Below, piece by piece: positions 50 to 19,019 of a stretch of 32,650 nt of DNA. How positions within the stretch are numbered: the stretch's first letter is position 1; each line of letters begins with the position of its first letter. Source of the DNA: an uncultured Thermodesulfobacteriota bacterium (GTDB lineage: Bacteria > Desulfobacterota > WTBG01); NCBI GenBank assembly GCA_964473235.1, contig CAYYOQ010000002.1:1-32650 (forward strand). Reading direction: 5' to 3'. Position numbers and translations under genes: made by a program. Below the pieces are notes generated by a model. That model was not told where the DNA came from. It did no database searches and saw nothing but the letters and a program-made list of their open reading frames with translations.

Positions 50-1045
50 TCAATTGACCTTTAATTCCCAATAAGGAACAAGCTGGTCAAATTGGAATAA
101 TCCTTTCATAGCTATATTCTCAGTAGCGATGCCCGATTCTTCCACTGCTGCTAAGGGGTTTAATCCACCCGATACAATCATACCTGCCCTTCCTTCAGAT
201 ACGGGTATATCGAGGAGCGGACGACCCGGCTTACCGATCATGAGTATACCACCCAAGCCAATTTCATTTAATTTTTTTCTTATTTTTTCAACTTTTGTAA
301 TAGCTATAGAAGGAACTTCTCGAAAACTTGCTCCGATCTTACCATCGCCGGTTATAGTTGCGTGGCGAACACTCGTCATACCACCTTTGATAAAAATTTC
401 GAGAGGATCGATTGAAGAACCATCATAATTAATTATTTCGGTAAAGCGAAAAGGGCGACCTTTTATTAATTCCAAAAGACCTCCAAATCTTGAGGTGGTA
501 TGAATACCTTCTTTCAATAGTATCCCGTTTATAGTAACACTACATACTGTCCCAATGGCCACTCTATCACCTTCAATTGATACATTTCCCATCTTCGTCC
601 CCGGAAATCCTAACACTACAAATCTCCCCATTCCAAGACCTGCTCGAAGCACTAATTGAATTTGCTGAAGAGCCTTCGTAAGGTATTCCCTCTCTATGGC
701 AGATATATTAAGGATGACATCCCCTCTTAATTTTTTCAAAGAAAAACTCATTAGATATGTCAAGGTATCAATTTTAGATGCGACAAACCCTACCTTTTCA
801 ATGACGAATGAGGATTTAAGTTCCTCTTCACCTTTTAAAGTTATCTTTCTTCCTCTTTTTCCAAGATTCTGGGTCAGACCATCCTGATCCATTTTCTGAA
901 GATAATATCTAACAGTTCTTTGACTGAGATCAAATCCAAATTCCTCCAATCTCTTGGAAATTCTGGTACCACCTAAAGTCTTTTCTGCTTTATGTAAAAT
1001 ATTAAGAATAGATACCAAAATCTTTTTTTTAGAAAACTTATCCAC
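50..1045 (-). CDS. nrpR: NrpR-type nitrogen regulatory repressor (winged HTH plus a single NrpR/DUF128 domain)
   Basis: 331 aa ORF with a GTG start at 1045 and GGAGGG 7 nt upstream on the minus strand. The N-terminal HTH-like segment is RISKRLEEFGFDLSQRTVRYYLQKMDQDGL. It is followed by one ~230 aa domain resembling methanogen NrpR (SRFGGLLEL, IDPLEIFIKGGMTS). The gene is divergent from nitrogen-assimilation genes. Confidence 0.8.
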   Translation of the reverse strand: MDKFSKKKILVSILNILHKAEKTLGGTRISKRLEEFGFDLSQRTVRYYLQKMDQDGLTQNLGKRGRKITLKGEEELKSSFVIEKVGFVASKIDTLTYLMSFSLKKLRGDVILNISAIEREYLTKALQQIQLVLRAGLGMGRFVVLGFPGTKMGNVSIEGDRVAIGTVCSVTINGILLKEGIHTTSRFGGLLELIKGRPFRFTEIINYDGSSIDPLEIFIKGGMTSVRHATITGDGKIGASFREVPSIAITKVEKIRKKLNEIGLGGILMIGKPGRPLLDIPVSEGRAGMIVSGGLNPLAAVEESGIATENIAMKGLFQFDQLVPYWELKVN

Positions 1046-2913: not shown

Positions 2914-3058
2914 TTGCTATACACACAACCCCGGTAGCATGGCATGAGACCATTTCAATTAGGTAGTCCCTTAAAAAAATTAACTACCACATGGTATTCA
3001 AAGAGTCAGCTTACTAATAACACAAAACGTATAGCGTAGTAAGAAGGAGGTATTGTCT

Positions 3059-4306
3059 ATGTCAAAAGTTAATCCATTCGCAATGGCTCAGCAACAATTA
3101 GACATCGCCGCAGAAAAACTAGGTTTAGAACCAGCTATTCATGAATTCCTGCGGTGGCCCATGAAGGAAATAAAAGTAATCCTTCCCTTAAAAATGGATG
3201 ATGGATCGACCAGAATATTTCATGGCTACCGGGTTCAGTATAATACCGCTCGCGGGCCTGCGAAGGGAGGGCTGCGCTGGCATCCAGATGAAACCTTAGA
3301 TACGGTTCGTGCCCTGTCTGCCTGGATGACCTGGAAGACATCGGTAGTCGATCTCCCTTTGGGTGGAGGAAAAGGAGGGGTTACCTGTAATCCCAAAGAG
3401 CTTTCCGACAATGAGAAAGAACGACTTGCGAGAGCATATATGCGTGCGATCTGGCAAAACCTTGGTGTGAACAAGGATGTACCTGCTCCCGATGTATACA
3501 CTACTCCACAAATCATGGCATGGATGATGGATGAATATGAAACCCTGGTAGGGCACCATCATCCTGGCGTTATTACCGGTAAACCTTTAGCCATTGGAGG
3601 TTCTGCTGGGCGCACAGATGCGACGTCCCGTGGAGGTGCCTATGTCATCCGGGAAGCAGCACTTAGATTGAACCTGGATCTTCATGGTAAAACCATGGCT
3701 ATCCAAGGTTTTGGAAACGCAGGTCAATATGCAGCACTTCTCGGCAGCAAAATACTTGGTCTCAAACTGGTCGCTGCCTCTGACTCCAAAGGAGGTGTCT
3801 ATAACGAAAAAGGAATAGATCCGGAAGCGCTCGTAAACTATAAGTTGAAAACCGATACGCTCCAAGGATTCCCTAATACTGAACCCATTAGTAATGATGA
3901 ACTCCTTCAGCTGGAGGTTATGGTACTATTTCCTTCCGCGTTGGAACAGGTCATTACCGAACGAAATGCAGATGAGATTAAATGTAAAATCTTATGTGAG
4001 CTTGCGAATGGTCCCACCACACCTGAAGCAGACAATATCCTTTACCAGAATAATGTCTTTGTTCTTCCCGATTTCCTAGCGAATGCCGGTGGGGTCACGG
4101 TTTCTTACTTTGAGCAGGTGCAAAACACTTATAATTACTACTGGGAACTCGATGAGATTCACCAAAAACTTGATGTGAAAATGACCCATGCCTTTCAAAG
4201 CGTCTATGACATGAGCCAGCGTGAAAAGATTAATATGCGTCAGGCTGCGTACTTAGTGTCTGTAGCAAGGGTGGCTGAAGCGTGCCGACTACGCGGGTGG
4301 GTATAG
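3059..4306 (+). CDS. gdhA: Glutamate dehydrogenase
   Basis: Motifs: PAKGGLRWHP, LPLGGGKGG (catalytic Lys region) and the dinucleotide fold GFGNAG. The ATG at 3059 has AGGAGG 8 nt upstream. The ORF track extends to a TTG at 3053. Confidence 0.95.
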   Translation: MSKVNPFAMAQQQLDIAAEKLGLEPAIHEFLRWPMKEIKVILPLKMDDGSTRIFHGYRVQYNTARGPAKGGLRWHPDETLDTVRALSAWMTWKTSVVDLPLGGGKGGVTCNPKELSDNEKERLARAYMRAIWQNLGVNKDVPAPDVYTTPQIMAWMMDEYETLVGHHHPGVITGKPLAIGGSAGRTDATSRGGAYVIREAALRLNLDLHGKTMAIQGFGNAGQYAALLGSKILGLKLVAASDSKGGVYNEKGIDPEALVNYKLKTDTLQGFPNTEPISNDELLQLEVMVLFPSALEQVITERNADEIKCKILCELANGPTTPEADNILYQNNVFVLPDFLANAGGVTVSYFEQVQNTYNYYWELDEIHQKLDVKMTHAFQSVYDMSQREKINMRQAAYLVSVARVAEACRLRGWV

Positions 4307-4351
4307 TTTAACCCGCTATTTTTGAAGTATCAGAAAACATTCAACGCATAT

Positions 4352-4386
4352 AAAAAGGTCAAGGCTAAAAAACGCTTGACCTTTTT
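4352..4386 (+). terminator. Rho-independent terminator after gdhA (A-tract/T-tract flanked, potentially bidirectional)
   Basis: AAAAAGGTCAAG-loop-CTTGACCTTTTT. The 7 bp GGTCAAG/CTTGACC stem has an 11 nt loop and a T5 tail, 46 nt after the stop codon. Confidence 0.75.
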
Positions 4387-4552
4387 ATATACCTCTCATG
4401 TACCAAACTATTAACACGATGTTTCATCACTGCACCATACTATCCTAGTAACATTGCGAAAATGCATTCTCTCGCTTTTCTACTACCATGCTACTCTGCC
4501 CAATAAGTTTACAAAAATTTTACAATGTGGAAATTATCCTGAAACACTGATA

Positions 4553-4568
4553 TTGTATATTTATACAA
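4553..4568. promoter_or_regulatory. Inverted repeat TTGTATA-TT-TATACAA upstream of glnA (candidate operator)
   Basis: Perfect 7 bp arms centred ~61 nt upstream of the glnA ATG. It is preceded by two TTTACAA direct repeats (4508-4514 and 4519-4525) spaced 11 nt apart. Confidence 0.35.
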
Positions 4569-4621
4569 AATAGTTGAACTAATGAATCACAATTTTAGCT
4601 ACCTTCAAAGGAGGATTAACC

Positions 4622-5953
4622 ATGGAAACGAAAGATAAAGATTATGTACTAAAAATGGTGAAAGAACGAAATGTGAGATTTATCAGATTGTGGTTTACTG
4701 ACATCCTGGGGTTTCTCAAAAGTTTCGCCATAACCCCCGAAGAACTGGAAGGAGCCCTCAACGAAGGTATGGGTTTCGATGGATCTTCCATTCAGGGATT
4801 CGCACGAATTGACGAGAGCGATATGGTTGCGGTGCCTGACCCAAATACGTTTGCGATAATCCCCTGGAGACCAAAGGAAACACCTGTTGCTCGCATGTTT
4901 TGTGACGTCATCGAGCCTGACGGCACACCTTATAAAGGTGACCCTCGATGGGTTTTAAAACGAAACCTCAAGAAGGCATCTGACATGGGCTTTACCTATT
5001 ACGTGGGACCTGAATTAGAATTCTTTTACTTTAAAAGTAGTGATGGGAAGCCAGAAGTCTTGGATAAAGGCGGATACTTTGATCTCACGCCGCTCGATGC
5101 GGCAAGTGATCTTCGCCGAGAAACGGTAGTCACCTTAGAGGAAATGGGGATCGGGGTTGAATATAGCCATCATGAAGTAGCACCCAGCCAACATGAAATC
5201 GATCTCCGCTACACCGATGCCCTCACTATGGCTGATAATGCGATGACCTATCGACTGGTAGTCAAAGAGATTGCCTTAAAACATGGTGTGTATGCGACCT
5301 TTATGCCCAAACCCATCTATGGTGAAAACGGCAGTGGCATGCACACCCACCAGTCGCTCTTCAAGGGCAACAAGAATGCCTTCTTTGATCCTAAAGATAA
5401 GTACCACCTCTCCAAAGTAGGTAAGGCATACCTTGCTGGATTACTCTCCCATGCCCGTGAAATCACCCTTATCACCAGTCAGTGGGTTAACTCTTATAAG
5501 CGACTGGTACCCGGCTATGAAGCACCTGTGTACATCTCTTGGGCACAGAGAAACCGCTCGGACCTCATTCGCATACCGCTCTATAAACCAGGTAAAGAAA
5601 AGGCAATGAGGCTTGAGTATCGTTCTCCTGACCCAGCGTGTAATCCCTACTTAGCATTTGCTGCCATGCTCGCCGCGGGCCTAGATGGTATCAAAAAGAA
5701 ATTAACACCACCCTCTCCTGTAGAGGAGAATGTCTATAAAATGACTCCAGAGAAAAGGAAGAAATTAAATATTGATCAACTCCCTGAAGACCTGTGGGAG
5801 GCAATATCAATTGCAGAAAGCAGTACGCTGGTAAAAGAGTGCCTGGGTGACCATGTATTTGAAAATTTTATCACTAATAAGAAAATAGAATGGGAAAAGT
5901 ATCGAGCCCAGGTCACTGATTATGAGCTCGATCGATACTTATCAATTCTATAG
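4622..5953 (+). CDS. glnA: Glutamine synthetase type I (short, alpha-like form; no obvious adenylylation motif)
   Basis: 443 aa with AAGGAGG SD upstream. Motifs: FDGSSI, GPELEFF, NGSGMHTHQS, SYKRLVPGYEAP. Confidence 0.97.
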   Translation: METKDKDYVLKMVKERNVRFIRLWFTDILGFLKSFAITPEELEGALNEGMGFDGSSIQGFARIDESDMVAVPDPNTFAIIPWRPKETPVARMFCDVIEPDGTPYKGDPRWVLKRNLKKASDMGFTYYVGPELEFFYFKSSDGKPEVLDKGGYFDLTPLDAASDLRRETVVTLEEMGIGVEYSHHEVAPSQHEIDLRYTDALTMADNAMTYRLVVKEIALKHGVYATFMPKPIYGENGSGMHTHQSLFKGNKNAFFDPKDKYHLSKVGKAYLAGLLSHAREITLITSQWVNSYKRLVPGYEAPVYISWAQRNRSDLIRIPLYKPGKEKAMRLEYRSPDPACNPYLAFAAMLAAGLDGIKKKLTPPSPVEENVYKMTPEKRKKLNIDQLPEDLWEAISIAESSTLVKECLGDHVFENFITNKKIEWEKYRAQVTDYELDRYLSIL

Positions 5954-6026
5954 CGTATTAATAGGTTCACCAATAGTTCATCCGGGACGTCATGAGAACA
6001 AGGGGTAAGTAGAGGGTGACCACAAA

Positions 6027-6485
6027 GTGACTGCATACCACTATCAACCACGTATCGTATCTTTCTGCTGCCATAATTGTATTGCTTACGCAGAAGATAC
6101 GCTCAGTGTTGCCAGAGAAAATGACGCACTCTCCCTACACCTTGTCAAAATGCCCTGCACTGGAAAGGTAGAAATACTCCACCTTCTCAAAGCTGTTGAG
6201 GAGGGGGCTGATGGGGTGATGGTAGTAGGATGTCTGGAAGGTGAATGTCACTACTTAGAAGGTAATATTCGTACTAAAAGAAGAGTGGCATTTGCCGGTC
6301 AAATGTTACAAGAGATTGGATTCGAAGGTAAAAGAGTCCAGATGTATACTATTGATCCTCTAAAGACTGATCAGTTGCGGGAGATAATTAAAGAGATGAT
6401 GATGATAGTCAATAAATTAGGACCTTCTCCTTTTAACAAAACTAAAGGCTCACCATCTCAAGAAGAGAACGCATACGAGACATGA
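6027..6485 (+). CDS. MvhD/FlpD-like iron-sulfur protein (methyl-viologen-reducing hydrogenase delta subunit family)
   Basis: 152 aa with a GTG start. IVSFCCHNC...VKMPCTGKV...EGADGVMVVGCLEGECHY resembles the MvhD cysteine pattern and spacing. The stop lies 3 nt before the next gene. Confidence 0.8.
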   Translation: MTAYHYQPRIVSFCCHNCIAYAEDTLSVARENDALSLHLVKMPCTGKVEILHLLKAVEEGADGVMVVGCLEGECHYLEGNIRTKRRVAFAGQMLQEIGFEGKRVQMYTIDPLKTDQLREIIKEMMMIVNKLGPSPFNKTKGSPSQEENAYET

Positions 6486-6488
6486 ATA

Positions 6489-7889
6489 ATGCCCAAGAAA
6501 TACACCATTAAAACCAAAACAACTCCTCCCCGGTTTACTCCCATGGGTAAGTCTGGCATTGTAGATTTCAGCGAAGACTGTGCACGTTGTCAGACATGTG
6601 CTAAGGATGCCTGTATCTTCAATGTCTATACCAACAGAAATTTCGATTCAACCCAGCTCGCCGATTCCATTGACTATCTCTGTAAAAATTGCTTTCGCTG
6701 CATCCAGAGCTGCAAAAAGGGACTTATTTCCAAATCCATAAACCCTGAATACCTGAGGATGGGAGATCACTACTGGACCCCCGACATCATTTCTTGTAAC
6801 TGGTATCAGGCCGAAACAGGGAAAATACCCGTATCAGGTGCCGGCTATCGAGGTAAGTTTGCCGGTAAGGGGTTTGATGATATGTGGACCGATATGTCTG
6901 AGATTGTACGGCCTACTCGAGATGGAATTCACGGAAGAGAATACATCAGCACCACAATCGACTTAGGCAAGAAACCACCTCTGCTTAAATTTGATGAAAA
7001 AGGTGCACTCATTTCAGAGACCCTTCCGCTTATTGAAATCCCTCTCCCCATGATCTTTAATGTGTCACCGTTTGGAGAAGTAAGTGAAAAGGTAGTGATC
7101 GCAATGGCAAAAGCAGCACAAGCACTCACTACTTTGATGTTCATCCCCGAAGAAAACCTGATACCATCACTGACACCGTATCTGAACTGGCTCGTTCCTC
7201 AGATTGCAGCAAAGGGTGAAAGACTTCCTGGGGAAATCATCAAAGGCTGCAGGATGGTTGAACTACTCTATACAAGCGAATGGGAAAAGACCTGGCTCTC
7301 CATCAAAGAAATAAATCCCCAGGTGCTCATTTCGCTCAAAATACCTTTTAATTACCATGCAACAGAACTTACTGCAGCACTTGCGTTACAAGGAGTTGAA
7401 ATCATTCACCTCTATGCTGACCTGCAAGGCAATTCCATTGACGATGTCCATCCCCGGTTTATAAAAGACTTGACCAGAGATATCCACCTGCGTCTGGTGG
7501 ATGAATCACTACGAGATAAGGTAACCCTTCTGGTGAGCGGTGGCATTGCCATGGCTGAGCATGTGGCGAAGGCGATTATCTGTGGGGCAGATGGAGTCAT
7601 ACTCGATCTCCCTCTTTTGATTGCGCTTGAGTGCCGACTGTGTAAAAAGTGCCTAAGGGGTCTTCCTTGTCCAGTTAAAATAGGAAACATCAATATTGGT
7701 TGGGCAACACAACGCATTATGAACTTAATGGCTGCCTGGCGCAGTCAACTGCTTGAAGTACTTGGAGCAATGGGTTTGCGTGAGGTGAGAAGGTTGCGAG
7801 GTGAAATGGGGAGAGCCATGCTTTTTAAAGACCTCGAGCAAGAAATCTTTGCCCCGCTGTTTGGTCAAAGGATACAAGAGTTACACTAG
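6489..7889 (+). CDS. Ferredoxin-domain plus degenerate GltB FMN-domain paralog (putative non-catalytic glutamate synthase subunit)
   Basis: 466 aa and clearly paralogous to the next gene (GDHYWTPDIISCNWYQAETGKIP vs GDYRWTADLIISTWQQAETGKLP). It keeps two N-terminal CxxCxxCxxx(x)C motifs and the C-terminal ECRLCKKCLRGLPC cluster. It lacks the GGMSFGS, QGAKPG and DGxxGGTG motifs. Confidence 0.8.
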   Translation: MPKKYTIKTKTTPPRFTPMGKSGIVDFSEDCARCQTCAKDACIFNVYTNRNFDSTQLADSIDYLCKNCFRCIQSCKKGLISKSINPEYLRMGDHYWTPDIISCNWYQAETGKIPVSGAGYRGKFAGKGFDDMWTDMSEIVRPTRDGIHGREYISTTIDLGKKPPLLKFDEKGALISETLPLIEIPLPMIFNVSPFGEVSEKVVIAMAKAAQALTTLMFIPEENLIPSLTPYLNWLVPQIAAKGERLPGEIIKGCRMVELLYTSEWEKTWLSIKEINPQVLISLKIPFNYHATELTAALALQGVEIIHLYADLQGNSIDDVHPRFIKDLTRDIHLRLVDESLRDKVTLLVSGGIAMAEHVAKAIICGADGVILDLPLLIALECRLCKKCLRGLPCPVKIGNINIGWATQRIMNLMAAWRSQLLEVLGAMGLREVRRLRGEMGRAMLFKDLEQEIFAPLFGQRIQELH

Positions 7890-7898
7890 CACTATTCT

Positions 7899-9407
7899 AT
7901 GGATGAGAGAGCATTAGCACAACCCATCGAGACTATACCCGCACCTTCCCGATTCAGAAATCCGATTGGGAAATATAAAATCAGGAGAAGCCCTGCCTGT
8001 AATGGCTGTGGGAGGTGTATCGAGTGTTGTCCCTATGGTGTGCATCAAAGAATAGGGAAAAAACTTGCCCGCCCTCAAGATTATAGATGTAGGGGCTTTT
8101 CCTGCAAGCAAAACCCATTTTACTGCATTGACCAGTGTCCTCGCAAGGCACTGAAGCTTGCCCTCAATCCTCTTGCTGAGGCGATGGGAGATTACCGCTG
8201 GACCGCTGATTTGATTATCAGTACCTGGCAGCAGGCGGAGACAGGGAAATTACCGGCAGGGGATATTGAATACGAAGTAGGTGATGCGGGCGGTGGATTT
8301 GATCAGATGAGATTTATCTTTCATGCGGCAGGAGCCAAGATTCCTCCAGAGAAAATCTCAACCAGCATCGAGCTGAATAAAAGAGATGATGGTCGTCCTT
8401 CGGTGCGCATTGAAGTACCTTTTTATGGAGGGGGAATGTCCTTTGGCTCAGTAAGTCTGCCCACCATCGTTGCCAGGGCAAAGGCGGCAAAAATCTGGAA
8501 CACCTTCACCTGTACTGGTGAAGGAGGATATCCTGAAGTACTGGTACCCTATGCGGACCATGTCATCACCCAGGTTGCCACTGGTCTCTTCGGAGTGCGA
8601 GAGCACACCATTCAGCGAGCAAAAATAGTAGAGTTTAAATATGCCCAGGGAGCCAAGCCTGGGCTGGGAGGGCATTTACTCGGTGATAAGGTCACCCCCG
8701 CAGTAGCCCAGATGAGGGAATCAATAGTAGGCAATGCGCTCTTCTCACCATTTCCCTTTCACAGTGTGTATTCTGTTGAAGATCACAAGAAACACGTGGA
8801 TTGGATTAAACACATTAATCCTCGGGCACTGGTGTCGGTAAAGGTTTCAACCCCTACGGATGTGGATATGGTCGCGGTGGGAAGTTACTATGCGGGCGCC
8901 CATATTATCCACCTCGATGGAAGTTATGGCGGGACCGGCGCTGCGCCCGATATTGCCAAAAAGAATATTGCCATGCCCATCGAATATGCAATCCCCAAAG
9001 TACATAAGTTTTTGATCAATGAAGGCATTCGCGATAACATAACTTTAATCGCCAGTGGTGGAATCAGAACCGCCTATGATATCGCCAAGGCAATTGCCCT
9101 TGGCGCCGATGGCGCGGTAACGGGAACTGCTGAGCTGGTTGCACTGGAATGCTTGCGCTGTGGCAACTGTGAAAGTGGTCGTGGCTGTGCACGAGGAATA
9201 GCCACTACCGATATGAAACTCAGCAATCTGATTGAAGTAGAATGGGGGACACAGCGCATTGTAAATCTCTTTACTTCCTGGAGAACTCAGCTGGTTGAGA
9301 TTCTATCCCGCTTGGGGATGCGTAGTATTAAAGAGCTCGTCGGAAGAACTGATTGTTTAAAGCACCTTGATTATACTAACGATGTAGTGATGAAAGCAGC
9401 CCCTTAG
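7899..9407 (+). CDS. gltB: Archaeal-type glutamate synthase FMN subunit (N-terminal ferredoxin domain plus GltB domain 2)
   Basis: 502 aa. Motifs: CNGCGRCIECCP, GGGMSFGS, YAQGAKPGLGGHL, LDGSYGGTGAAP, ASGGIRT, ECLRCGNCESGRGC. Confidence 0.9.
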   Translation: MDERALAQPIETIPAPSRFRNPIGKYKIRRSPACNGCGRCIECCPYGVHQRIGKKLARPQDYRCRGFSCKQNPFYCIDQCPRKALKLALNPLAEAMGDYRWTADLIISTWQQAETGKLPAGDIEYEVGDAGGGFDQMRFIFHAAGAKIPPEKISTSIELNKRDDGRPSVRIEVPFYGGGMSFGSVSLPTIVARAKAAKIWNTFTCTGEGGYPEVLVPYADHVITQVATGLFGVREHTIQRAKIVEFKYAQGAKPGLGGHLLGDKVTPAVAQMRESIVGNALFSPFPFHSVYSVEDHKKHVDWIKHINPRALVSVKVSTPTDVDMVAVGSYYAGAHIIHLDGSYGGTGAAPDIAKKNIAMPIEYAIPKVHKFLINEGIRDNITLIASGGIRTAYDIAKAIALGADGAVTGTAELVALECLRCGNCESGRGCARGIATTDMKLSNLIEVEWGTQRIVNLFTSWRTQLVEILSRLGMRSIKELVGRTDCLKHLDYTNDVVMKAAP

Positions 9408-9410
9408 ACA

Positions 9411-12044
9411 ATGAAAGACTATCTCTCCCCCTCAGCGATTCAACATATTCTTTTGTCTCGATCTAAGCTTGCCAAAGCTTATAAACCTCCTACTGCATAC
9501 AAAGCAGAAGAAGAAGGCGGTTGTGGCGTAACCGGTTTTGCCTGCAGCATCCCGGTGAGCGGTCGCCACATCTTTACACCCTCCATTCAAATGCATAATA
9601 GAGGAAATGGGAAAGGAGGAGGGATTGCAGCGGTAGGTCTTTCACCTGAAGGGTTAAGGGTTTCCCCCTCTCTTCTAGAAGAAGCGTATCTAATCCAGAT
9701 CGCCTATATTGATTCTCATATCCGAAAGGCTGTTGAAACAGAATGCATTAGTCCATTCCTTGAGGTGGCAAAAGCCGAAAAGATTCCCACCATTGATGAC
9801 TATAAGATGATTGAAGGTCTGGAGTCCAAACCTCCGGATGTGTGGCGATACTTTGCCAGAGTGAAAGAAAAGGTACTACAACAGTTCATAGAAGAACACC
9901 ACCTTGAAGAGCTACCCACTCCCAGGGCAGAAGATGAATTCATTCATCAAAACAGTTTCAAACTCAACCTAAAATTCTATGCCTCCCTTGGCGAAAAGAA
10001 GGCCTTTGTCTTATCCCATGGGCGCAATATGATGATTCTTAAGATCGTAGGGTATGCGGAACAAGTGGTACGTTATTACCAGCTTGATGATTTTCAAGCC
10101 CACATCTGGATAGCTCATCAACGCTACCCGACCAAGGGAAGAGTGTGGCATCCGGGCGGTGCGCATCCTTTCTGCGGAATGCATGAAGCCTTAGTCCATA
10201 ACGGCGATTTTGCCAATTACTACTCGGTTTCAGAGTATCTCAAGCAGAGAAATATCTACCCTCTTTTTCTCACTGATACAGAAGTTTCAATTCTCCTTTT
10301 TGATCTTTTGCACAGAGTGTATGGCTATCCCCTTGAATATGTTATCGAGGCACTTGCTCCCACCACCGAGATGGATTTTGATCTTCTCCCTTCTGATAAG
10401 CAGGAAATATACCGTGCCATCCAGGCAAGCCATATCCACGGTTCCCCCGATGGTCCCTGGTTTTTTATCATCGCAAGAAATGATTCCTATGAAAAGAAAC
10501 TACAGCTTATCGGGATCACCGATACCGCCATGTTACGACCTCAAGTATTCGCCCTCCAGGAAGGGAAAGTACAGATAGGGCTCATCTGCTCCGAAAAACA
10601 AGCCATCGATGCCACACTCCACAGCCTCTCCTCTGAGGATACAAGGTTCTGCCCCATTGCAGATAAATACTGGAATGCCCGGGGTGGAAGCTATACCGAT
10701 GGGGGTGCATTTCTTTTTACTCTCAAGCACAATGGTGATAAAGGGAATCAGATGTGCCTAACCTGTACTGATAAATTCGGCCGTACCATTTCCACTCTGC
10801 AAGGAAAAACACACTGGGATAGGAGCATTACGCTCACCGCACCTGCTAGTGCATCCTCGATTATGACCATGGTTGATGAAGGGCTTTACCAGAAAGATTC
10901 CACACTACTTTCACGTACCCTCAGTGACCACCTTAGCACCTGGGACTACCATACTATACTATGGTGCTGTGAGAGCCTGGTAGAAAAAGCGCACGCAGGT
11001 AACAACCATAAGGCAAAGATCATTGAACTCTTGACCTTGCTCATCGATCACCGCTATGACACTGGGACTAAAAAGAGAAGCTCTATACTGCAGATTGTAC
11101 ATGAACATCTCTATAAAGTGTTCCACTCAACACCCCCTTGTGGAACTGAGGGAACAGACCTTTACCGTTTCATTGATTACCATACCAGCACTACATTAGC
11201 TCCCCCTCAAAATTCTGGGCAGATCTTAATTATTCACGCCAAAGATTTTCCACCTGAAGGTGATCACAGTGATGCCCGGCTCATGGTCGATGCCTACCAG
11301 ATGGGATGGAAACAATTCATTGCCTTCGACTACCGGGGGCAGCGATTCTGTGGCTGTGGCTTAGGTCCTGATACTAAAGGAGTGCGCATTGATGCCTATG
11401 GGAGTTCGGGCGATTATCTGGGCTCAGCGATTGATGGAATGGAACTCTATGTCCACGGTACTGCCCAAGATCAACTAGGTCAAATTATGAAATCAGGGAA
11501 AATGGTGGTATATGGCGATGTGGGTCAAACCCTCATGTATGGTGCCAAAGGTGGTGAAGTGTATATCATGGGAAATGCGGCGGGAAGACCGCTGATTAAT
11601 GCAGTAGGACGTCCGAGAGTAGTTATCAACGGCACTTGCTTAGACTACCTAGCTGAATCTTTTATGGCAGGTGATCCCCTCCAGGGCGGTGGTTTTGTAG
11701 TTTTAAACGGAATTGAGTTTGATGAAAAAGGAACACTAAGAGAACAACCAACCCCTTACCCGGGTTCTAATCTTTTTTCGCTTGCCTCAGGCGGTGCAAT
11801 TTATGTGAGAGATCCCTATCAAAAACTGATGGCTGAACAGCTCAATGGTGGTGAGTTTGTCTCCCTCACCCCCGATGACTGGAACCTTATTCTTCCCTAT
11901 CTTAAAGAAAATGAACGGCTCTTTGATATATCCATTGAACGAGATCTCCTCACTACCAGGGGGAAATTAAAAGAGCCTCAGGAAATCTACCGCAAGGTGA
12001 GGGCAGTGAAGCTTGACGTATTAACTGAAGGAGAAGGAGAATAA
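9411..12044 (+). CDS. Fusion of the class II (Ntn) glutamine amidotransferase domain and the GXGXG (GltB C-terminal) domain of glutamate synthase
   Basis: 877 aa. The CGVTGF nucleophile Cys is at residue 38, implying a 37 aa propeptide as occurs in some bacterial GltB proteins. Other motifs: HQRYPTKG...HNGDFANY and a C-terminal VVYGDVGQTLMYGAKGGEVYIMGNAAGRP. A ~170 aa linker is unassigned. Confidence 0.88.
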   Translation: MKDYLSPSAIQHILLSRSKLAKAYKPPTAYKAEEEGGCGVTGFACSIPVSGRHIFTPSIQMHNRGNGKGGGIAAVGLSPEGLRVSPSLLEEAYLIQIAYIDSHIRKAVETECISPFLEVAKAEKIPTIDDYKMIEGLESKPPDVWRYFARVKEKVLQQFIEEHHLEELPTPRAEDEFIHQNSFKLNLKFYASLGEKKAFVLSHGRNMMILKIVGYAEQVVRYYQLDDFQAHIWIAHQRYPTKGRVWHPGGAHPFCGMHEALVHNGDFANYYSVSEYLKQRNIYPLFLTDTEVSILLFDLLHRVYGYPLEYVIEALAPTTEMDFDLLPSDKQEIYRAIQASHIHGSPDGPWFFIIARNDSYEKKLQLIGITDTAMLRPQVFALQEGKVQIGLICSEKQAIDATLHSLSSEDTRFCPIADKYWNARGGSYTDGGAFLFTLKHNGDKGNQMCLTCTDKFGRTISTLQGKTHWDRSITLTAPASASSIMTMVDEGLYQKDSTLLSRTLSDHLSTWDYHTILWCCESLVEKAHAGNNHKAKIIELLTLLIDHRYDTGTKKRSSILQIVHEHLYKVFHSTPPCGTEGTDLYRFIDYHTSTTLAPPQNSGQILIIHAKDFPPEGDHSDARLMVDAYQMGWKQFIAFDYRGQRFCGCGLGPDTKGVRIDAYGSSGDYLGSAIDGMELYVHGTAQDQLGQIMKSGKMVVYGDVGQTLMYGAKGGEVYIMGNAAGRPLINAVGRPRVVINGTCLDYLAESFMAGDPLQGGGFVVLNGIEFDEKGTLREQPTPYPGSNLFSLASGGAIYVRDPYQKLMAEQLNGGEFVSLTPDDWNLILPYLKENERLFDISIERDLLTTRGKLKEPQEIYRKVRAVKLDVLTEGEGE

Positions 12045-12064
12045 CCTACAGGTAAGGAGTAACC

Positions 12065-12787
12065 ATGGAACTCATTGATGCCATTACTGCCTGGATAAAA
12101 GAACAAGTAACGCTCGCTGGGGCAGAAGGGGTAGTAGTAGGGTTAAGCGGTGGGATTGATTCATCAGTAGTGGCAGCACTGGCAAAACAGTCCCTGGGTA
12201 ATCGGGTAGTAGGGTTGATTCTTCCATGCCGCAGTCCACAAGAAGATAGAGACGATGCGCAACTGATCGTTTCTCATCTCCAACTGGAAACATATACCTT
12301 TGAGTTAAGCCCAGTATATGATGCATTTATTACCGTGCTTCCTCCTGGTGATATAAAAATCAAGGCTAATATAAAACCCCGTCTTCGCATGATCATTCTT
12401 TACTATTTTGCCGGCATTAGAAATTATCTGGTAGCCGGCACTGGTAACAAAAGCGAAATTTCAGTAGGCTACTTCACTAAATATGGTGATGGTGGTGCAG
12501 ATATCCTTCCTCTCGGCGATCTGCTCAAATCAGAGGTAAGGTCAATCGCACGTGCACTGGCACTGCCTGAGAAAATCATTAATAAACCTCCCACTGCCGG
12601 CCTCTGGCCTGGACAAACCGACGAAAGTGAGCTTCAACTTACCTATGAGCAACTCGATCAGGCCATTATAAAAATTACCTCTCACCAGGTACAAGGGATA
12701 CCGCCTGAAATTCGATCACGTGTTGAAGCGCTTATGAAGCAATCCTTACACAAAAGGCTTCCTATTCCGGTATGTAAAGTTCACTAA
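12065..12787 (+). CDS. nadE: NH3-dependent NAD+ synthetase (short form, no glutaminase domain)
   Basis: 240 aa with AAGGAG SD upstream. Contains the SGGIDSS PP-loop and GTGNKSE...YFTKYGDG. Confidence 0.92.
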   Translation: MELIDAITAWIKEQVTLAGAEGVVVGLSGGIDSSVVAALAKQSLGNRVVGLILPCRSPQEDRDDAQLIVSHLQLETYTFELSPVYDAFITVLPPGDIKIKANIKPRLRMIILYYFAGIRNYLVAGTGNKSEISVGYFTKYGDGGADILPLGDLLKSEVRSIARALALPEKIINKPPTAGLWPGQTDESELQLTYEQLDQAIIKITSHQVQGIPPEIRSRVEALMKQSLHKRLPIPVCKVH

Positions 12788-12923
12788 AGGTAGGGTGATC
12801 TTTTCTTGAAAAGTAACTGAAAAGGGCTTCTATCGGTACCCCCTATGAATAATTCTGTTGATTCACCGTCTAAAAAATGGTAGTTATCTTTGGCTTGTTC
12901 AGATTACCTTGGCGGGATCTACC

Positions 12924-14195
12924 ATGGATACACAATCTACTAACTATAAGATAATGTACGAGAGAAACGTTAAATGGATTGAGGAAATCGTTACCCAGCA
13001 GAATGAGTGGAGGCACAATACCATCAATCTCATTGCCAGTGAAAATGTAATGAGCGAGCGTGCCCGCCGGGTGATGGGTTCTGATTTTGCCCACCGCTAT
13101 GCAGAAGGACACCCAGGAGAAAGGTACTATCAGGGTACCGATAAAATCGATGAGATAGAGAGTTGGGTGAAGCAGCAACTAAGAACACTGTTTAATTGCC
13201 AACACATAGAGGTGCGACCCATCAGTGGGACAGTCGCCAATGACGCGGTTTTTAGCAGATATATAATCCCCGGTGATGTAGTAATGGTAAACTCTACTCC
13301 CGGCGGAGGCCATATCAGCCATCATAAGTCAGGTTCTGTCGGAAAGTACACTAAGAATATAGTTGACTTCCCTCTCGCCCCCGATGGATACCATATCGAT
13401 GTTGAACAAACCCAACATCTCATTAAGAAGCTTCACCCCAAAGTGCTCATTTTGGGAAAAAGTCTCTTTCTCTTTCCAGAACCTATTACAGATTTGGTTG
13501 AAATTTGCAGGGATAATGAGGCAACTATTATCTATGATGCCGCCCACGTACTGGGCTTGATTGCCGGCAAGCAATTTCAAGACCCACTCACTGAAGGAGC
13601 AGATATTGTTACCGCAAGCACCCACAAGACTTTCTTTGGATCTCAAAGAGGTCTTATTATGAGCAATGTGGATACTAAAGAGTGGTGGAAAATTGATAAA
13701 GGTGCTTTTCCTGGCTCTTCCTCGAACCACCACCTTGACACGCTCGTGTCCCTGGCTATCACCATCTGTGAGATGCTCGTCTTCGCTGAAGAGTATGCAC
13801 AACAAACCATAGCTAATGCCAAGGCACTCGCCAGGAGTCTCTGTGAGCGTGGTTTTGAGGTGCAAGCCAAAGCGTTTGACTTTACCGAAACTCATCAGAT
13901 TGCAGTTGATGTGTCTGAGCTAGGGGGAGGAAATGAGGTTGCCCGCATCCTTAAAGAAAACGACATCATCCTCAACATGAATCTCCTTCCCTTTGAGCCT
14001 CTCGAGAAGGTTACCAATCCCTCAGGCATCCGTCTCGGAGTGCAGGAGATGACCCGATTTAGTATGAAAGAAAAAGAGATGGAGAACATTGCTGAGCTAT
14101 TCAAAAAGTGTCTCAAAGATGGTGTCTCAGTAAAAAATGAAGTGAGAGCATTAAGAAAAGCATTTCAGAAGGTACACTACTCATTTGATAGATGA
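12924..14195 (+). CDS. glyA: Serine hydroxymethyltransferase, archaeal-like subtype
   Basis: LIASEN, HRYAEGHPGERYYQG and the PLP-Lys motif THKTFFGSQRG (bacterial enzymes typically have THKTLRGPRG). The ATG at 12924 aligns with known N-termini. The ORF track begins at a TTG at 12858. Confidence 0.9.
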   Translation: MDTQSTNYKIMYERNVKWIEEIVTQQNEWRHNTINLIASENVMSERARRVMGSDFAHRYAEGHPGERYYQGTDKIDEIESWVKQQLRTLFNCQHIEVRPISGTVANDAVFSRYIIPGDVVMVNSTPGGGHISHHKSGSVGKYTKNIVDFPLAPDGYHIDVEQTQHLIKKLHPKVLILGKSLFLFPEPITDLVEICRDNEATIIYDAAHVLGLIAGKQFQDPLTEGADIVTASTHKTFFGSQRGLIMSNVDTKEWWKIDKGAFPGSSSNHHLDTLVSLAITICEMLVFAEEYAQQTIANAKALARSLCERGFEVQAKAFDFTETHQIAVDVSELGGGNEVARILKENDIILNMNLLPFEPLEKVTNPSGIRLGVQEMTRFSMKEKEMENIAELFKKCLKDGVSVKNEVRALRKAFQKVHYSFDR

Positions 14196-14230
14196 TCGCC
14201 AACCCAATCAATTGGCCTAGAGCACTTAGC

Positions 14231-14285
14231 TGTCTCTATCCCTCCGATCTCTTTCTCTTTCTTGGTATTTTCTTCTCTCTCCTAC
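14231..14285 (+). promoter_or_regulatory. Polypyrimidine (CT-rich) tract in the carA leader
   Basis: 55 nt, tgtctctatccctccgatctctttctctttcttggtattttcttctctctcctac, with about 8 purines. It is followed by mutually exclusive hairpins that share GGTAG at 14300-14304. Confidence 0.3.
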
Positions 14286-14355
14286 GAATTCTGGATTTCG
14301 GTAGTCATAGTGTATCACCCTACCTTTCACTGATAGTATTTTTACAGAGGCTCTG

Positions 14356-15522: not shown

Positions 15523-15534
15523 TAGAACACATCT

Positions 15535-18909: not shown

Positions 18910-19019
18910 AAAAGGTAGAGGTGACCTACTATAGCAACTCCTTAGGTTAAGATCGGGAGTGCTTCAACAACCAATAACCATAGTTACAAACGATACACTT
19001 CCATAAAGAGAACTATTCC

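What the first reader, a model, noticed from the sequence alone, without database searches (positions are those of the whole stretch)
6027..12044. MvhD-like Fe-S protein embedded in a four-gene split glutamate synthase that has no GltD/NAD(P)H subunit
Seen in sequence: four genes separated by only 3-9 nt. They are an MvhD/FlpD-like protein, a ferredoxin-FMN-like paralog, an intact ferredoxin-FMN GltB-domain-2 subunit, and an amidotransferase-GXGXG fusion. They sit directly downstream of glnA with no terminator between. No pyridine-nucleotide oxidoreductase (GltD-like) gene is present in the window. Established knowledge: MvhD is the [2Fe-2S] electron conduit between Mvh hydrogenase and heterodisulfide reductase in methanogens. 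Archaeal glutamate synthases are built from separate domain proteins whose physiological reductant is poorly defined. Inference: this locus may encode a glutamate synthase that receives low-potential electrons through an MvhD wire plus polyferredoxin-like domains. The source could be ferredoxin, a hydrogenase or an Hdr-like module. I am not aware of this architecture having been characterised.
Basis: partly seen in the sequence, partly recalled or inferred. Interest (0 to 1): 0.72.

Follow-up and report, generated by a model that had tools for sequence, protein, structure and literature searches.

The report
Glutamate synthase with MvhD electron adaptor
Next to glnA, this window encodes a four-protein, iron-sulfur-rich glutamate synthase with no NADPH-binding GltD subunit but with a small MvhD-type [2Fe-2S] protein, an arrangement that is conserved across many anaerobic bacteria, is often interleaved with folate-reductase (MetVF) or Hdr genes, and has no biochemical description that I could find.

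Summary
Four co-directional genes, 3-9 nt apart, lie 73 nt downstream of glnA: an MvhD/FlpD homologue (152 aa), a degenerate GltB paralogue that I call GltB' (466 aa), an intact ferredoxin-FMN GltB (502 aa), and an amidotransferase-GXGXG fusion (877 aa). No GltD gene lies in the 32.6 kb window.

The fusion protein's family occurs in at least 594 GTDB species. Among the 80 most similar loci, 51 carry enough upstream DNA to judge, and 43 of those have an MvhD gene upstream of GltB'. Their record titles name at least six phyla.

- In 27 of the 51 loci, MTHFR genes (MetV and/or MetF) sit between mvhD and gltB'. In six more, MetV-MetF follow the cluster directly.
- In five loci (four titled ANME-1 or related archaea, or resembling them, plus one Dehalococcoidia), a FAD-oxidase/Fe-S protein occupies the MvhD slot.
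- In the closest relatives, translationally coupled hdrC-hdrB-hdrL follow the cluster. HdrL is an HdrA-GltD fusion.

Best reading: this is a real GOGAT in which MvhD is a plug-in electron adaptor, GltB' is a catalytically dead Fe-S scaffold, and the donor module is encoded elsewhere. The donor is probably Hdr-type, possibly ferredoxin. I rate it a new variant of a known kind. The donor is untested.

The parts
6027..6485 (+). mvhD-like gene: a 152-aa MvhD/FlpD-family protein, predicted to bind [2Fe-2S] and to act as the electron adaptor
   Evidence: Pfam FlpD E 5e-35. NCBIfam VhuD E 4e-33, below the equivalog cut-off. PDB MvhD 5odc_D E 8e-25 over residues 5-136. Cys15, Cys44, Cys69 and Cys74 are the Cys columns shared across the readable sequences of a 54-sequence alignment. 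The extra canonical CCxxC motif (Cys14, Cys18) is also present. A GAGGG ribosome-binding site lies 9 nt before the GTG start.
6489..7889 (+). gltB' gene: a 466-aa degenerate paralogue of the FMN subunit, predicted to be a catalytically inactive Fe-S scaffold or wire
   Evidence: 29% identical to ORF3 over its full length, with a 44-residue deletion. Across 55 family members it lacks KYAQGAKPGLGGHL...FSPFPFHSVYSVED, GGMSFGS, TGEGGYP and DGSYGGTGAAP, but keeps SGGIAMAEHVAKAIICGAD. Cys31/34/37/42 and Cys65/68/71/75 are 100% conserved; Cys382/385/388/394 are 93-98% conserved. It has a family-specific invariant block, G111-T155. It is fused to GltB in L086 and L067.
7899..9407 (+). gltB gene: a 502-aa subunit with an N-terminal 2x[4Fe-4S] ferredoxin domain and the FMN synthase domain, the catalytic 2-oxoglutarate site
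   Evidence: Pfam Glu_synthase E 3.7e-93. PDB GltS alpha subunits 1ea0/2vdc E 5e-52, residues 220-489 aligning to 904-1170. All synthase motifs are conserved in 61 homologues. Cys34/37/40/44, Cys64/69/76/80 and Cys418/421/424/430 are 100% conserved.
9411..12044 (+). Fused glutaminase (class-II Ntn amidotransferase) and GXGXG beta-helix subunit, 877 aa, with a 37-residue N-terminal extension before the catalytic Cys38
   Evidence: GXGXG at 56.9 bits. NCBIfam glmS 1e-8 and purF 5e-7 on residues 203-298. The alignment to the GlmS glutaminase domain places R238, N264, G265 and D289 opposite the GlmS HTRWAT, HNG and TDTE motifs. These residues, and C38 in the GGCGV motif, are invariant in 23 homologues. 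More than 7,600 database relatives were found, many at 64-78% identity.
4622..5953 (+). glnA (type I glutamine synthetase), probably the first gene of the same transcription unit
   Evidence: TIGR00653 E 3e-168. The spacer to mvhD is 73 nt with no terminator-like site. glnA lies within about 3.6 kb upstream of gltB' in 13 of the surveyed GTDB loci and in L001.
12065..12787 (+). nadE (NH3-dependent NAD synthetase), 20 nt downstream and possibly co-transcribed
   Evidence: Pfam NAD_synthase E 3e-73. No terminator-like site after ORF4. The same neighbour occurs in L042, L087 and L089.
50..1045 (-). nrpR-like nitrogen regulator (context)
   Evidence: Pfam NRD1_2 E 2e-77 plus a winged helix. The same synteny occurs in L004 and L042.
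3053..4306 (+). gdhA glutamate dehydrogenase (context), followed by a hairpin at 4337-4401
   Evidence: Pfam ELFV_dehydrog E 2e-75. Terminator-like site at 4296-4317 and a 27-nt inverted repeat at 4337-4401.

Best explanation
The four genes encode one enzyme: a GltD-less, iron-sulfur-rich glutamate synthase (GOGAT) of the split, 'archaeal' type. It works together with the glnA gene upstream.

Steps shown by sequence:
- The 877-aa subunit carries a class-II glutaminase with a conserved catalytic set. The catalytic Cys38 would be exposed by removing a 37-residue propeptide. It also carries the GXGXG beta-helix.
- The 502-aa GltB carries the complete FMN/2-oxoglutarate synthase site and three four-Cys cluster sites.
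- The 466-aa GltB' has lost the synthase motifs but keeps three four-Cys sites.
- The MvhD homologue keeps the four Cys positions that are conserved across its relatives, which I take to be the [2Fe-2S] ligands.

Inferred mechanism: electrons enter at the MvhD [2Fe-2S] cluster from a partner encoded elsewhere. They run through the clusters of GltB' and GltB to FMN. FMN reduces the 2-iminoglutarate formed from 2-oxoglutarate and ammonia channelled from glutamine.

The slot upstream of gltB' is an exchangeable electron-input position. Relatives fill it with MvhD alone, MvhD-MetV, MvhD-MetV-MetF, or a FAD-oxidase/Fe-S fusion.

For the window's type, the most likely partner is an HdrA/HdrL-type flavoprotein, with NAD(P)H entering through HdrL's GltD-like module. 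Direct reduction by ferredoxin is the main alternative.
For: Domain and motif evidence.

Nitrogen-assimilation context:
- The window carries glnA, gdh, nrpR, nadE, carAB and purF.
- amtB-glnK sit between glnA and mvhD in L045 and L069, and directly upstream of mvhD in L075 and L079.
- L089 reads guaA-pyrG-nadE-mvhD-gltB'-gltB-gltAC-hisF.

MvhD belongs to the cassette:
- 43 of 51 informative loci have it.
- Where it directly precedes gltB', 12 of 21 gaps are at most 21 nt (3 nt in the window).
- MvhD distances correlate with GltB' distances (Mantel r 0.82, p <= 0.0005, 42 loci). The GltB'-GltB correlation is 0.92.
- L042 shares 76-89% identity with the window in NrpR, GDH and GlnA, but only 35-67% in the cassette, and its cassette includes MetVF. 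The cassette therefore moves as a unit.
- Four loci carry two distinct MvhD genes, one before gltB' and one after HdrA/HdrL (L037, L061, L072, L076). L064 also has two, one ahead of MetV-MetF downstream of hdr genes and one directly before gltB'.

The slot is exchangeable: the FAD_binding_4/FAD-oxidase_C/Fer4_8 protein occupies it in L039, L044, L053, L071 and L077.

The Hdr link:
- L001-L003 have gltAC-hdrC-hdrB with 4-nt overlaps, then a 1480-aa HdrL.
- L061, L072, L076, L078 and L037 also have Hdr genes downstream.
- The window's MvhD groups in an NJ tree with Hdr-linked MvhDs and keeps their CCxxC motif.
- The MvhD chains matched in the PDB come from Hdr-containing complexes. This is my own reading of entries 5odc, 7bkb, 9sw2, 9sfi and 8rvu listed; for 8rvu see PMC12350162.

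GltB'-GltB fusions in L086 and L067 indicate that the two proteins form a complex.
Against: - No HdrA, hydrogenase or ferredoxin gene lies in the 32.6 kb window.
- Only 6 of the 51 informative loci (plus L078 and the L001-L003 contigs) have Hdr genes within 10 kb.
- Eight of 51 loci keep the core without MvhD, so the core can work with other inputs or none.
- The N-terminal 2x[4Fe-4S] domains of GltB and GltB' could accept electrons from ferredoxin directly.
- The amidotransferase domain matches Pfam only below threshold. The AlphaFold model of it was poor: overall mean pLDDT 57, below 50 across most of the N-terminal domain. The fold search was inconclusive.
- The cluster site in the barrel has four Cys (C-x2-C-x2-C-x5-C). 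The alignment to solved GltS shows only part of this motif, and the classical site binds [3Fe-4S] with three Cys (Cys count from my own knowledge).
- There are no biochemical or expression data.
- The census covers only the 80 loci most similar to the window, out of at least 594. They are mostly MAG contigs, annotated by my own six-frame phmmer search.
Confidence: 0.55

Rival explanations
1. This is a plain ferredoxin-dependent GOGAT. Reduced ferredoxin docks on the N-terminal 2x[4Fe-4S] domains of GltB or GltB', or on MvhD. MvhD is an internal or accessory wire, and no Hdr-type partner is involved.
For: No Hdr gene lies in the window or in most type-A loci, for example L007, L020, L063, L075, L079 and L089. 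Both GltB and GltB' have fully conserved ferredoxin-like dicluster domains. Three loci (L017, L056, L067) have the core with no upstream redox gene. MetVF-type MTHFRs are reported to use reduced ferredoxin (titles and abstracts of PMC8515935 and PMC8760232).
Against: It does not explain why a dedicated MvhD, or a flavoprotein module (MetF, FAD-oxidase), is so regularly encoded in the input slot. It does not explain the translationally coupled hdrCB-hdrL in the closest relatives. From my own knowledge of the entries listed, MvhD is not known as a ferredoxin-docking protein in any solved complex.
Confidence: 0.27
2. The MvhD gene belongs functionally to the MetVF/Hdr methylene-THF reductase system. 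In the window it is a relic left when metVF was lost, with no role in glutamate synthesis.
For: In 27 of 51 loci, MetV and/or MetF lie directly after mvhD. mvhD-metV-metF is the known gene order of the Hdr-MvhD-MetVF reductase. The MetF proteins upstream of gltB' intermix in the tree with Hdr-linked MetFs.
Against: MvhD is kept intact in at least 17 species-level loci that have no MetVF between it and gltB', usually with a short gap to gltB'. The four shared Cys positions are conserved. Loci with two MvhD genes keep one directly before gltB' (L061, L064, L037). MvhD co-varies with GltB'. In the window lineage MvhD homologues are 87-91% identical between contigs, with full length preserved.
Confidence: 0.06
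3. The cluster is not a net glutamate synthase but another GltS-like amidotransferase/flavoenzyme. Candidates are an N-methylglutamate-synthase-like enzyme or a C1/folate-linked enzyme. The folate link seen in relatives would then reflect its true substrate.
For: GltS-domain proteins encoded as separate subunits exist with other activities, for example N-methylglutamate synthase (my own knowledge, not tested here). MetVF genes are embedded in many relatives. No NCBIfam equivalog reaches its cut-off for any of the four proteins.
Against: The synthase motifs shared with bona fide GltS are almost invariant. Seven predicted Fe-S clusters imply net electron transfer. The neighbours are glnA, amtB, glnK, gdh and nrpR, not methylamine or NMG-dehydrogenase genes.
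Confidence: 0.07

Closest known systems
Split 'archaeal-type' glutamate synthase: separate ORFs for the GltS domains, noted in Archaea (Vanoni 2021 review, PMC8097209). The M. jannaschii MJ1349-1351 layout is from my own knowledge.
   Same: The FMN synthase subunit has an N-terminal 2x[4Fe-4S] ferredoxin domain. The glutaminase and GXGXG domains are not part of the same polypeptide as the FMN domain. There is no GltD next to them.
   Different: Here the glutaminase and GXGXG domains are fused into one 877-aa protein. A second, catalytically degenerate FMN-domain paralogue (GltB') is always present. An MvhD-type protein is part of the cassette. Going by record titles, the carriers are mostly bacteria: Desulfobacterota-like, Chloroflexota, Acidobacteriota, Poribacteria and Actinomycetota.
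Bacterial NADPH-GltS (GltB-GltD; PDB 1ea0, 2vdc, 6s6s) and Fd-GltS (PDB 1llw, 1ofd)
   Same: The FMN domain is homologous (E 5e-52). The beta-helix is homologous, though the match is weak (E about 1e-3). Class-II glutaminase motifs are present. There is an N-terminal propeptide before the catalytic Cys; the 36-residue length difference between 6s6s and 1ea0 fits the known A. brasilense propeptide (my own knowledge).
   Different: There is no GltD subunit and no recognisable central domain; GltB' shows only weak, sub-threshold Glu_syn_central similarity. The barrel has a four-Cys site instead of the three-Cys [3Fe-4S] site (three-Cys count from my own knowledge). Four extra ferredoxin-type clusters and a [2Fe-2S] protein are predicted.
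[quoted passage not shown] 2014, as cited in PMC5736913 and PMC6085437) and HdrL-MvhD-MetVF of Desulfobacterales (PMC2702500; L005, L006)
   Same: It uses an MvhD-family protein as a connector next to a flavoenzyme that reduces a high-potential substrate. The window's MvhD is 43-47% identical to such MvhDs. In many relatives the two systems are physically interleaved.
   Different: The window has no HdrA, HdrBC, MetV or MetF. The flavoenzyme attached here is a glutamate synthase.
Putative F420-dependent glutamate synthases of methanogens and ANME (FrhB-GltS fusions or clusters; PMC9012536)
   Same: They follow the same idea: a GltD-less GltS core that receives electrons from a swapped-in donor module.
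   Different: The donor module there is FrhB-like (F420). Here it is MvhD, and in the related ANME-1 loci surveyed here it is a FAD-oxidase/Fer4_8 protein.

Membership tests
MvhD/FlpD family (PF02662) | Profile match above the curated threshold over the whole domain | tested here: met
   120.6 bits against a 22.3 cut-off, profile positions 1-123 of 123.
MvhD/FlpD family (PF02662) | Four conserved cysteines that ligate the [2Fe-2S] cluster | tested here: met
   Cys15, Cys44, Cys69 and Cys74 are the Cys columns shared across the readable sequences of 54 aligned MvhD homologues from the loci. Cluster binding itself was not tested.
MvhD/FlpD family (PF02662) | Sequence homology to structurally solved MvhD subunits | tested here: met
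   5odc_D E 8e-25; 9sw2_D, 9sfi_K, 7bkb_F and 8rvu_F at E about 1e-23.
Mvh hydrogenase / Hdr complex subunit (functional MvhD or VhuD) | Encoded with, or bound to, MvhAG hydrogenase and/or HdrA | tested here: not met
   No hydrogenase or HdrA gene lies in the window. The NCBIfam VhuD score is 114.5, below the 215 cut-off. Physical binding to an HdrA encoded elsewhere cannot be tested here.
Glutamate synthase (GltS/GOGAT) | FMN synthase domain (PF01645) with conserved catalytic motifs | tested here: met
   ORF3 at 313 bits, aligning to PDB GltS residues 904-1170. The motifs QGAKPGxGG and GGTGA(A/S)P are conserved in 61 homologues.
Glutamate synthase (GltS/GOGAT) | Class-II (Ntn) glutamine amidotransferase domain with an N-terminal catalytic Cys | tested here: inconclusive
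   The Pfam GATase_6 score of 23.9 is below the 27 cut-off. On the other hand, C38 (GGCGV), R238, N264-G265 and D289 are invariant and align to the GlmS glutaminase motifs. The structure model was too poor to confirm the fold. Propeptide cleavage was not tested.
Glutamate synthase (GltS/GOGAT) | C-terminal GXGXG beta-helix domain | tested here: met
   PF01493 at 56.9 bits against a 32.5 cut-off. PDB FwdC and GltS beta-helices are hit.
Glutamate synthase (GltS/GOGAT) | Three-Cys [3Fe-4S] site in the FMN domain | tested here: not met
   ORF3 has C418-x2-C421-x2-C424-x5-C430, four Cys that are 100% conserved. The alignment to 1ea0 shows the different spacing. A [4Fe-4S] cluster is predicted instead.
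Glutamate synthase (GltS/GOGAT) | Dedicated electron donor: a GltD subunit (NAD(P)H) or a ferredoxin-binding alpha subunit | tested here: not met
   There is no GltD-like ORF in the window. A GltD-like module is found only inside HdrL in relatives. Ferredoxin use cannot be tested here.
Glutamate synthase (GltS/GOGAT) | Catalyses glutamine + 2-oxoglutarate + 2 e- -> 2 glutamate | not testable with these tools
   This needs an enzyme assay.
Split archaeal-type GltS | GltS domains on separate polypeptides, with a ferredoxin domain on the FMN subunit | tested here: met
   ORF3 is Fer4 plus Glu_synthase. The glutaminase and GXGXG domains are on another protein, though here they are fused to each other.
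Hdr-MvhD-MetVF methylene-THF reductase | MetF and MetV together with HdrABC | tested here: not met
   phmmer with MetV, MetF, HdrB, HdrC and HdrL queries found nothing in the window at E < 1e-5. These genes are present only in relatives.
N-methylglutamate synthase (MgsABC) | GltS-like subunits next to gmaS and NMG-dehydrogenase genes, with no net redox chain | not tested
   No reference sequences or model were available. The context (glnA type I, gdh, nrpR) and the seven predicted Fe-S sites argue against membership.

The most novel reading that the evidence does not exclude
The MvhD-GOGAT cassette could be one arm of an Hdr/MetVF-type flavin-based electron-bifurcating (or confurcating) assembly. 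The strongly exergonic reduction of 2-oxoglutarate plus glutamine would serve as the high-potential branch. NAD(P)H oxidation by HdrL, or methyl-THF oxidation by MetVF in the many relatives with mvhD-metV-metF-gltB'-gltB-gltAC, would then be coupled to glutamate synthesis and possibly to ferredoxin reduction. That would be energy-conserving nitrogen assimilation in energy-starved anaerobes, and a candidate for the long-sought redox partner of MetVF/Hdr-MvhD-MetVF reductases.
Probability: 0.2. Interest if true: 0.9.

Novelty: new variant of a known kind. Interest (0 to 1): 0.68.

Why it matters
GOGAT is the main route of ammonium into biomass. Only two donor types, NAD(P)H through GltD and ferredoxin, are characterised biochemically. 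The split 'archaeal' enzymes have only been inferred from ORFs (PMC8097209).

This window is a clean example of a third architecture. That architecture occurs in at least 594 species-level genomes of sulfate reducers, syntrophs, Dehalococcoidia, ANME-1 and others. It has a defined, exchangeable electron-input slot.

The recurrent interleaving with MetVF and Hdr genes is unexpected. It ties nitrogen assimilation physically to the Wood-Ljungdahl methyl branch and to electron-bifurcation machinery.

It yields experiments that can be run directly. Which donor drives the enzyme? Does CH3-THF or NAD(P)H plus HdrL support glutamate synthesis? Is ferredoxin reduced at the same time? A positive answer would change energy budgets assumed for these organisms and could identify a missing partner of Hdr-MvhD-MetVF.

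Tried and rejected
- An exact look-up of the window's MvhD protein found nothing on record.
- The Rfam scan of the window found no riboswitch or leader.
- The methanogen NrpR operator GGAA-N6-TTCC has 3 matches, none near glnA or gltB. Eleven of 100 shuffles do as well, so this is not significant. Inverted-repeat searches in the intergenic regions showed only a gdh terminator hairpin and AT-rich palindromes.
- AlphaFold2 of the 877-aa subunit with a 23-sequence alignment gave pLDDT 57, with the glutaminase domain below 50. The Foldseek search had GltS as its best hit (7mfm_G, E 4e-3), followed by insignificant proteasome (Ntn-fold) hits. I treat this as inconclusive.
- A profile search of the ORF4 family against the PDB recovered only the beta-helix.
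- I tested the idea that GltB' is the counterpart of the GltS 'central domain'. Only weak Glu_syn_central hits appeared (9 of 11 members, best E 1.4e-4, below threshold). The idea is kept only as a hint.
- Ten full-text searches (MvhD/FlpD/MetVF/Hdr/bifurcation x glutamate synthase/GltB/GXGXG) found no paper describing this association. The candidate papers I read mention the terms separately.
- I did not attempt a multimer prediction. The tool returns no coordinates or PAE and accepts only window sequences.

Full report
**1. What is in the window**

ORF listing gives four co-directional genes: 6027-6485 (152 aa), 6489-7889 (466 aa), 7899-9407 (502 aa) and 9411-12044 (877 aa). The gaps between them are 3, 9 and 3 nt.

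glnA (4622-5953) ends 73 nt upstream and nadE (12065-12787) starts 20 nt downstream. No terminator-like site lies in either spacer. A terminator-like site and a 27-nt hairpin follow gdh, upstream of glnA.

Profile searches identify the four proteins as follows:
- ORF1 is a full-length FlpD/MvhD domain (E 5e-35).
- ORF2 has a ferredoxin-like N-terminus plus only the C-terminal half of the Glu_synthase domain.
- ORF3 has a Fer4 dicluster plus a complete Glu_synthase domain (E 3.7e-93).
- ORF4 has a weak class-II amidotransferase signal plus a GXGXG domain.

The rest of the window holds a divergent nrpR, a third Glu_synthase-like gene, gdh, glyA, carA, carB, purF, a phosphoesterase, an ABC-2 transporter, a B12-radical-SAM gene, a TPR gene, mutL, mutS and a Na/Ca exchanger gene. 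There is no GltD-like, HdrA, hydrogenase or stand-alone ferredoxin gene.

**2. Anatomy of the four proteins**

*MvhD homologue.* It aligns end to end with crystallised MvhD subunits (5odc_D, E 8e-25). In an alignment of 54 MvhD homologues taken from related loci, the shared Cys columns correspond to window Cys15, Cys44, Cys69 and Cys74. The window protein also has the canonical CCxxC motif.

*GltB (ORF3).* It aligns to residues 904-1170 of the A. brasilense GltS alpha subunit (E 5e-52). In 61 homologues every synthase motif is nearly invariant: GGMSFGS, CTGEGGYP, KYAQGAKPGLGGHLLGDKVT, FSPFPFHSVYSVEDHKKH, DGSYGGTGAAP and SGGIR. Twelve Cys in three four-Cys groups are 100% conserved. The group inside the barrel is C-x2-C-x2-C-x5-C, which differs from the motif of solved GltS.

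*GltB' (ORF2).* It is a full-length paralogue of GltB, 29% identical. Throughout a 55-member family it has a 44-residue deletion and substitutions that remove those synthase motifs. It keeps three four-Cys groups at 93-100% conservation and the FMN-phosphate-like SGGIAMAEHVAKAIICGAD segment. It also has its own invariant block, GKIPVSGAGY..GFD..WTDMSEIVRPTRDGIHGREYIST. I read it as a catalytically dead Fe-S (possibly flavin) scaffold.

GltB' and GltB are fused into one protein in two Chloroflexi loci (L086, 1021 aa; L067, 867 aa). This indicates that the two proteins act as a complex.

*ORF4.* It belongs to a very large, highly conserved family, with more than 7,600 hits, many at 64-78% identity. 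Cys38 in the GGCGV motif, Arg238, Asn264-Gly265 and Asp289 are invariant. They align with the glutaminase motifs of GlmS.

The 37-residue extension before Cys38 resembles the propeptide of bacterial GltS. The 36-residue length difference between 6s6s and 1ea0 can be seen; that this difference is a propeptide is my own knowledge.

The structure model of this protein was poor and the fold search inconclusive. Membership of the glutaminase fold therefore rests on motifs alone.

**3. Is the MvhD adjacency conserved?**

A scan of one genome per GTDB species with the ORF4 family alignment found at least 594 loci. The 80 most similar were fetched with 10-kb flanks. I searched their six-frame ORFs with the window proteins and with reference HdrB, HdrC, HdrL, MetV, MetF, FAD-oxidase, AmtB and GlnK sequences.

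The core gltB'-gltB-gltAC is constant. Fifty-one loci have enough upstream DNA to judge. What lies directly upstream of gltB' is:

| Upstream of gltB' | Loci |
|---|---|
| MvhD alone | 16 |
| MvhD-MetV-MetF | 19 |
| MvhD-MetV-MetF-MvhD (L064) | 1 |
| MvhD-MetV | 5 |
| MvhD-MetF | 2 |
| 613-636-aa FAD_binding_4/FAD-oxidase_C/Fer4_8 protein | 5 |
| No redox gene | 3 |

So 43 of 51 loci have MvhD. The FAD-oxidase/Fer4_8 type occurs in four loci titled ANME-1 or related archaea, or resembling them, and one Dehalococcoidia locus (Pfam).

In six loci with MvhD alone, MetV-MetF follow gltAC directly. Hdr genes (hdrC-hdrB-hdrA/L, often followed by a second mvhD-metV-metF) follow gltAC in L061, L072, L076, L078 and L037. 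They also follow it in the metagenome contigs L001-L003.

L001-L003 are the window's closest relatives with downstream context. Their identities to the window are ORF4 77%, GltB 80%, GltB' 71%, MvhD 57% and GlnA 89%. There hdrC overlaps gltAC by 4 nt, hdrB overlaps hdrC by 4 nt, and a 1480-aa HdrL follows. HdrL is the HdrA-GltD fusion first named in Desulfobacterium autotrophicum (PMC2702500).

Record titles of the MvhD-carrying loci name Desulfobacterales, Syntrophobacterales, Desulfobaccales, Desulfofervidaceae, Dehalococcoidia/Chloroflexi, Poribacteria, Actinomycetota, Thermoanaerobaculia and a Marinifilum MAG.

**4. Does MvhD belong to the GOGAT cassette or to its neighbours?**

Several results point to the cassette.
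- Where mvhD directly precedes gltB', the gap is short in most loci. Twelve of 21 gaps are at most 21 nt, and the longest is 225 nt.
- MvhD distances co-vary with GltB' and GltB distances (Mantel r 0.82 and 0.83, 42 loci, p <= 0.0005). GltB' against GltB gives 0.92. Shared phylogeny contributes to these values.
- L042 has the same flanking synteny as the window: nrpR, gdh, glnA, cassette, nadE. Its flanking proteins are close to the window's (NrpR 76%, GDH 89%, GlnA 86%). Its cassette is divergent (MvhD 35%, GltB' 52%, GltB 67%, ORF4 64%) and of the MetVF-containing type. The cassette, MvhD included, therefore behaves as a replaceable unit in a conserved nitrogen-assimilation slot.
- Loci with two MvhD genes keep one directly before gltB' and a different one after HdrA/HdrL or ahead of MetVF.

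The context is that of nitrogen assimilation. glnA lies upstream in many loci. amtB-glnK sit between glnA and mvhD in L045 and L069, and directly upstream of mvhD in L075 and L079. L089 reads guaA-pyrG-nadE-mvhD-gltB'-gltB-gltAC-hisF.

More distant MvhD homologues (43-47% identical) sit in classical HdrA/HdrL-MvhD-MetV-MetF clusters. The window's MvhD groups with these in an NJ tree, rather than with the CCxxC-less MvhDs of most MetVF-type cassettes.

**5. How it most likely works**

*Shown by sequence.* The cluster has a complete glutaminase motif set, a complete synthase site, a beta-helix domain, six four-Cys sites in GltB plus GltB', and a [2Fe-2S]-type protein. All are encoded with glnA.

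*Inferred.* The four proteins form one GOGAT. Electrons enter at MvhD and pass through GltB' and GltB to FMN.

The position upstream of gltB' looks like an exchangeable electron-input slot, because relatives fill it with four different gene sets. MetF and the FAD-oxidase are flavoprotein dehydrogenases that bring their own Fe-S partner (MetV, or the fused Fer4_8 domain). MvhD alone brings no flavoprotein, so the window-type enzyme needs a donor encoded elsewhere.

I favour an HdrA/HdrL-type partner, for three reasons:
- the closest relatives have translationally coupled hdrCB-hdrL downstream;
- the window's MvhD is of the canonical, Hdr-linked type;
- the solved MvhD chains matched come from Hdr complexes (my own knowledge of those entries).

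Direct reduction by ferredoxin is a serious alternative. The window and most loci with MvhD alone lack hdr genes nearby.

Using approximate potentials from my own knowledge (about -200 mV for CH2-THF/CH3-THF, and a clearly more positive effective potential for 2-oxoglutarate plus glutamine to glutamate), both methyl-THF and NAD(P)H could drive the reaction with energy to spare. This is why a bifurcating or MetVF-coupled version is conceivable. It is speculation (probability about 0.2).

**6. Comparison with what is known**

The system works like a glutamate synthase, and it passes the FMN-domain and GXGXG tests. It fails two classical features: there is no GltD, and the barrel has a four-Cys rather than a three-Cys cluster site. 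The glutaminase fold is supported only by motifs.

It is closest to the split 'archaeal' GltS ORFs mentioned in reviews (PMC8097209). Conceptually it is also close to the putative F420-dependent GltS and FrhB-GltS clusters of methanogens and ANME (PMC9012536).

The MvhD protein is a bona fide family member. It is not shown to be a hydrogenase or Hdr subunit here.

Ten full-text searches and ten papers read gave no description of an MvhD- or MetVF-associated glutamate synthase. That corpus is incomplete, so prior description cannot be excluded.

**7. Verdict**

The feature is real, conserved and widespread. I classify it as a new variant of a known enzyme kind, with an unresolved electron donor and an unexpected link to MetVF and Hdr.

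Caveats:
- The census covers only the 80 loci most similar to the window.
- Most loci are MAG contigs.
- Gene content was inferred from my own phmmer searches at E < 1e-5.
- No step of the electron path has experimental support.

Noticed in passing
window 1282-2913 (+), with window 50-1045 (-): A third Glu_synthase-like gene (543 aa) lies divergent from an nrpR-like regulator. It keeps GQGAK and DGAGGGTG motifs but has no NCBIfam match and only a weak Pfam Glu_synthase hit (E 5e-13). Homologues lie near glnA in L007, L041, L056, L062 and L063, and one lies after the cassette in L032. Its function is unknown.
   Followed up: partly
window 50-1045 (-) and intergenic regions 1046-1281 and 4307-4621: An NrpR homologue (Pfam NRD1_2 E 2e-77) sits in what looks like a bacterial genome. 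The same occurs in L042, L057 and L072. The methanogen operator GGAA-N6-TTCC is absent from the glnA and gltB-like promoters (3 matches elsewhere in the window, not significant).
   Followed up: partly
window 3053-20399: The region is a long co-directional run of nitrogen and glutamine-using genes: gdh, glnA, the GOGAT cassette, nadE, glyA, carA, carB and purF. The same order downstream of the cassette (nadE, glyA, carA, carB) is seen in L087 and L088.
   Followed up: partly
L039:5105-6946, L044:71-1981, L053:5288-7132, L071:5252-7123, L077:5174-7081: In four loci titled ANME-1 or related archaea (or resembling them) and one Dehalococcoidia locus, the MvhD slot is taken by a 613-636-aa FAD_binding_4 + FAD-oxidase_C + Fer4_8 protein resembling D-lactate or glycolate dehydrogenase. 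Where gene coordinates were listed (L039, L044, L071, L077), it overlaps or abuts gltB'.
   Followed up: partly
L012, L013, L028, L033, L034, L042, L046, L051, L054, L055, L058-L060, L070, L081 and L083-L086 (upstream of gltB'); L027, L030, L035, L036 and L038 (downstream of gltAC): Methylene-THF reductase genes metV-metF are embedded in or attached to the GOGAT cassette. The gap from the MetF stop to the gltB' start is 5-291 nt, mostly under 100 nt. The downstream MetFs form a separate tight clade. No paper describing this was found.
   Followed up: partly
L086:6855-9917 and L067:7336-9936: GltB' and GltB are fused into single proteins of 1021 and 867 aa in two Chloroflexi MAGs.
   Followed up: no
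L002 11432-14226, compared with L001: In one metagenome variant of the closest relative, the 875-aa glutaminase-GXGXG gene is broken into two reading frames (746-aa and 254-aa stop-to-stop ORFs). It is intact in L001 and L003. This may be an assembly error or a pseudogene.
   Followed up: no
L087 1496-3368: In a 77%-identical relative, a 23S_rRNA_IVP-family gene sits between gltB' and gltB. The gltB gene is called there as two pieces, of 373 and 109 aa.
   Followed up: no
window 4337-4401: A 27-nt inverted repeat (81% complementary, AAAAAGGTCAAG...CTTGACCTTTTT) lies after gdh. It looks like a bidirectional intrinsic terminator, so glnA probably starts its own transcript.
   Followed up: no
window 22892-24352 (+): A B12-binding radical-SAM protein with BchE-like similarity (TIGR02026 at 217 bits, below its cut-off) lies downstream of an ABC-2 transporter pair. 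It is unrelated to the finding.
   Followed up: no
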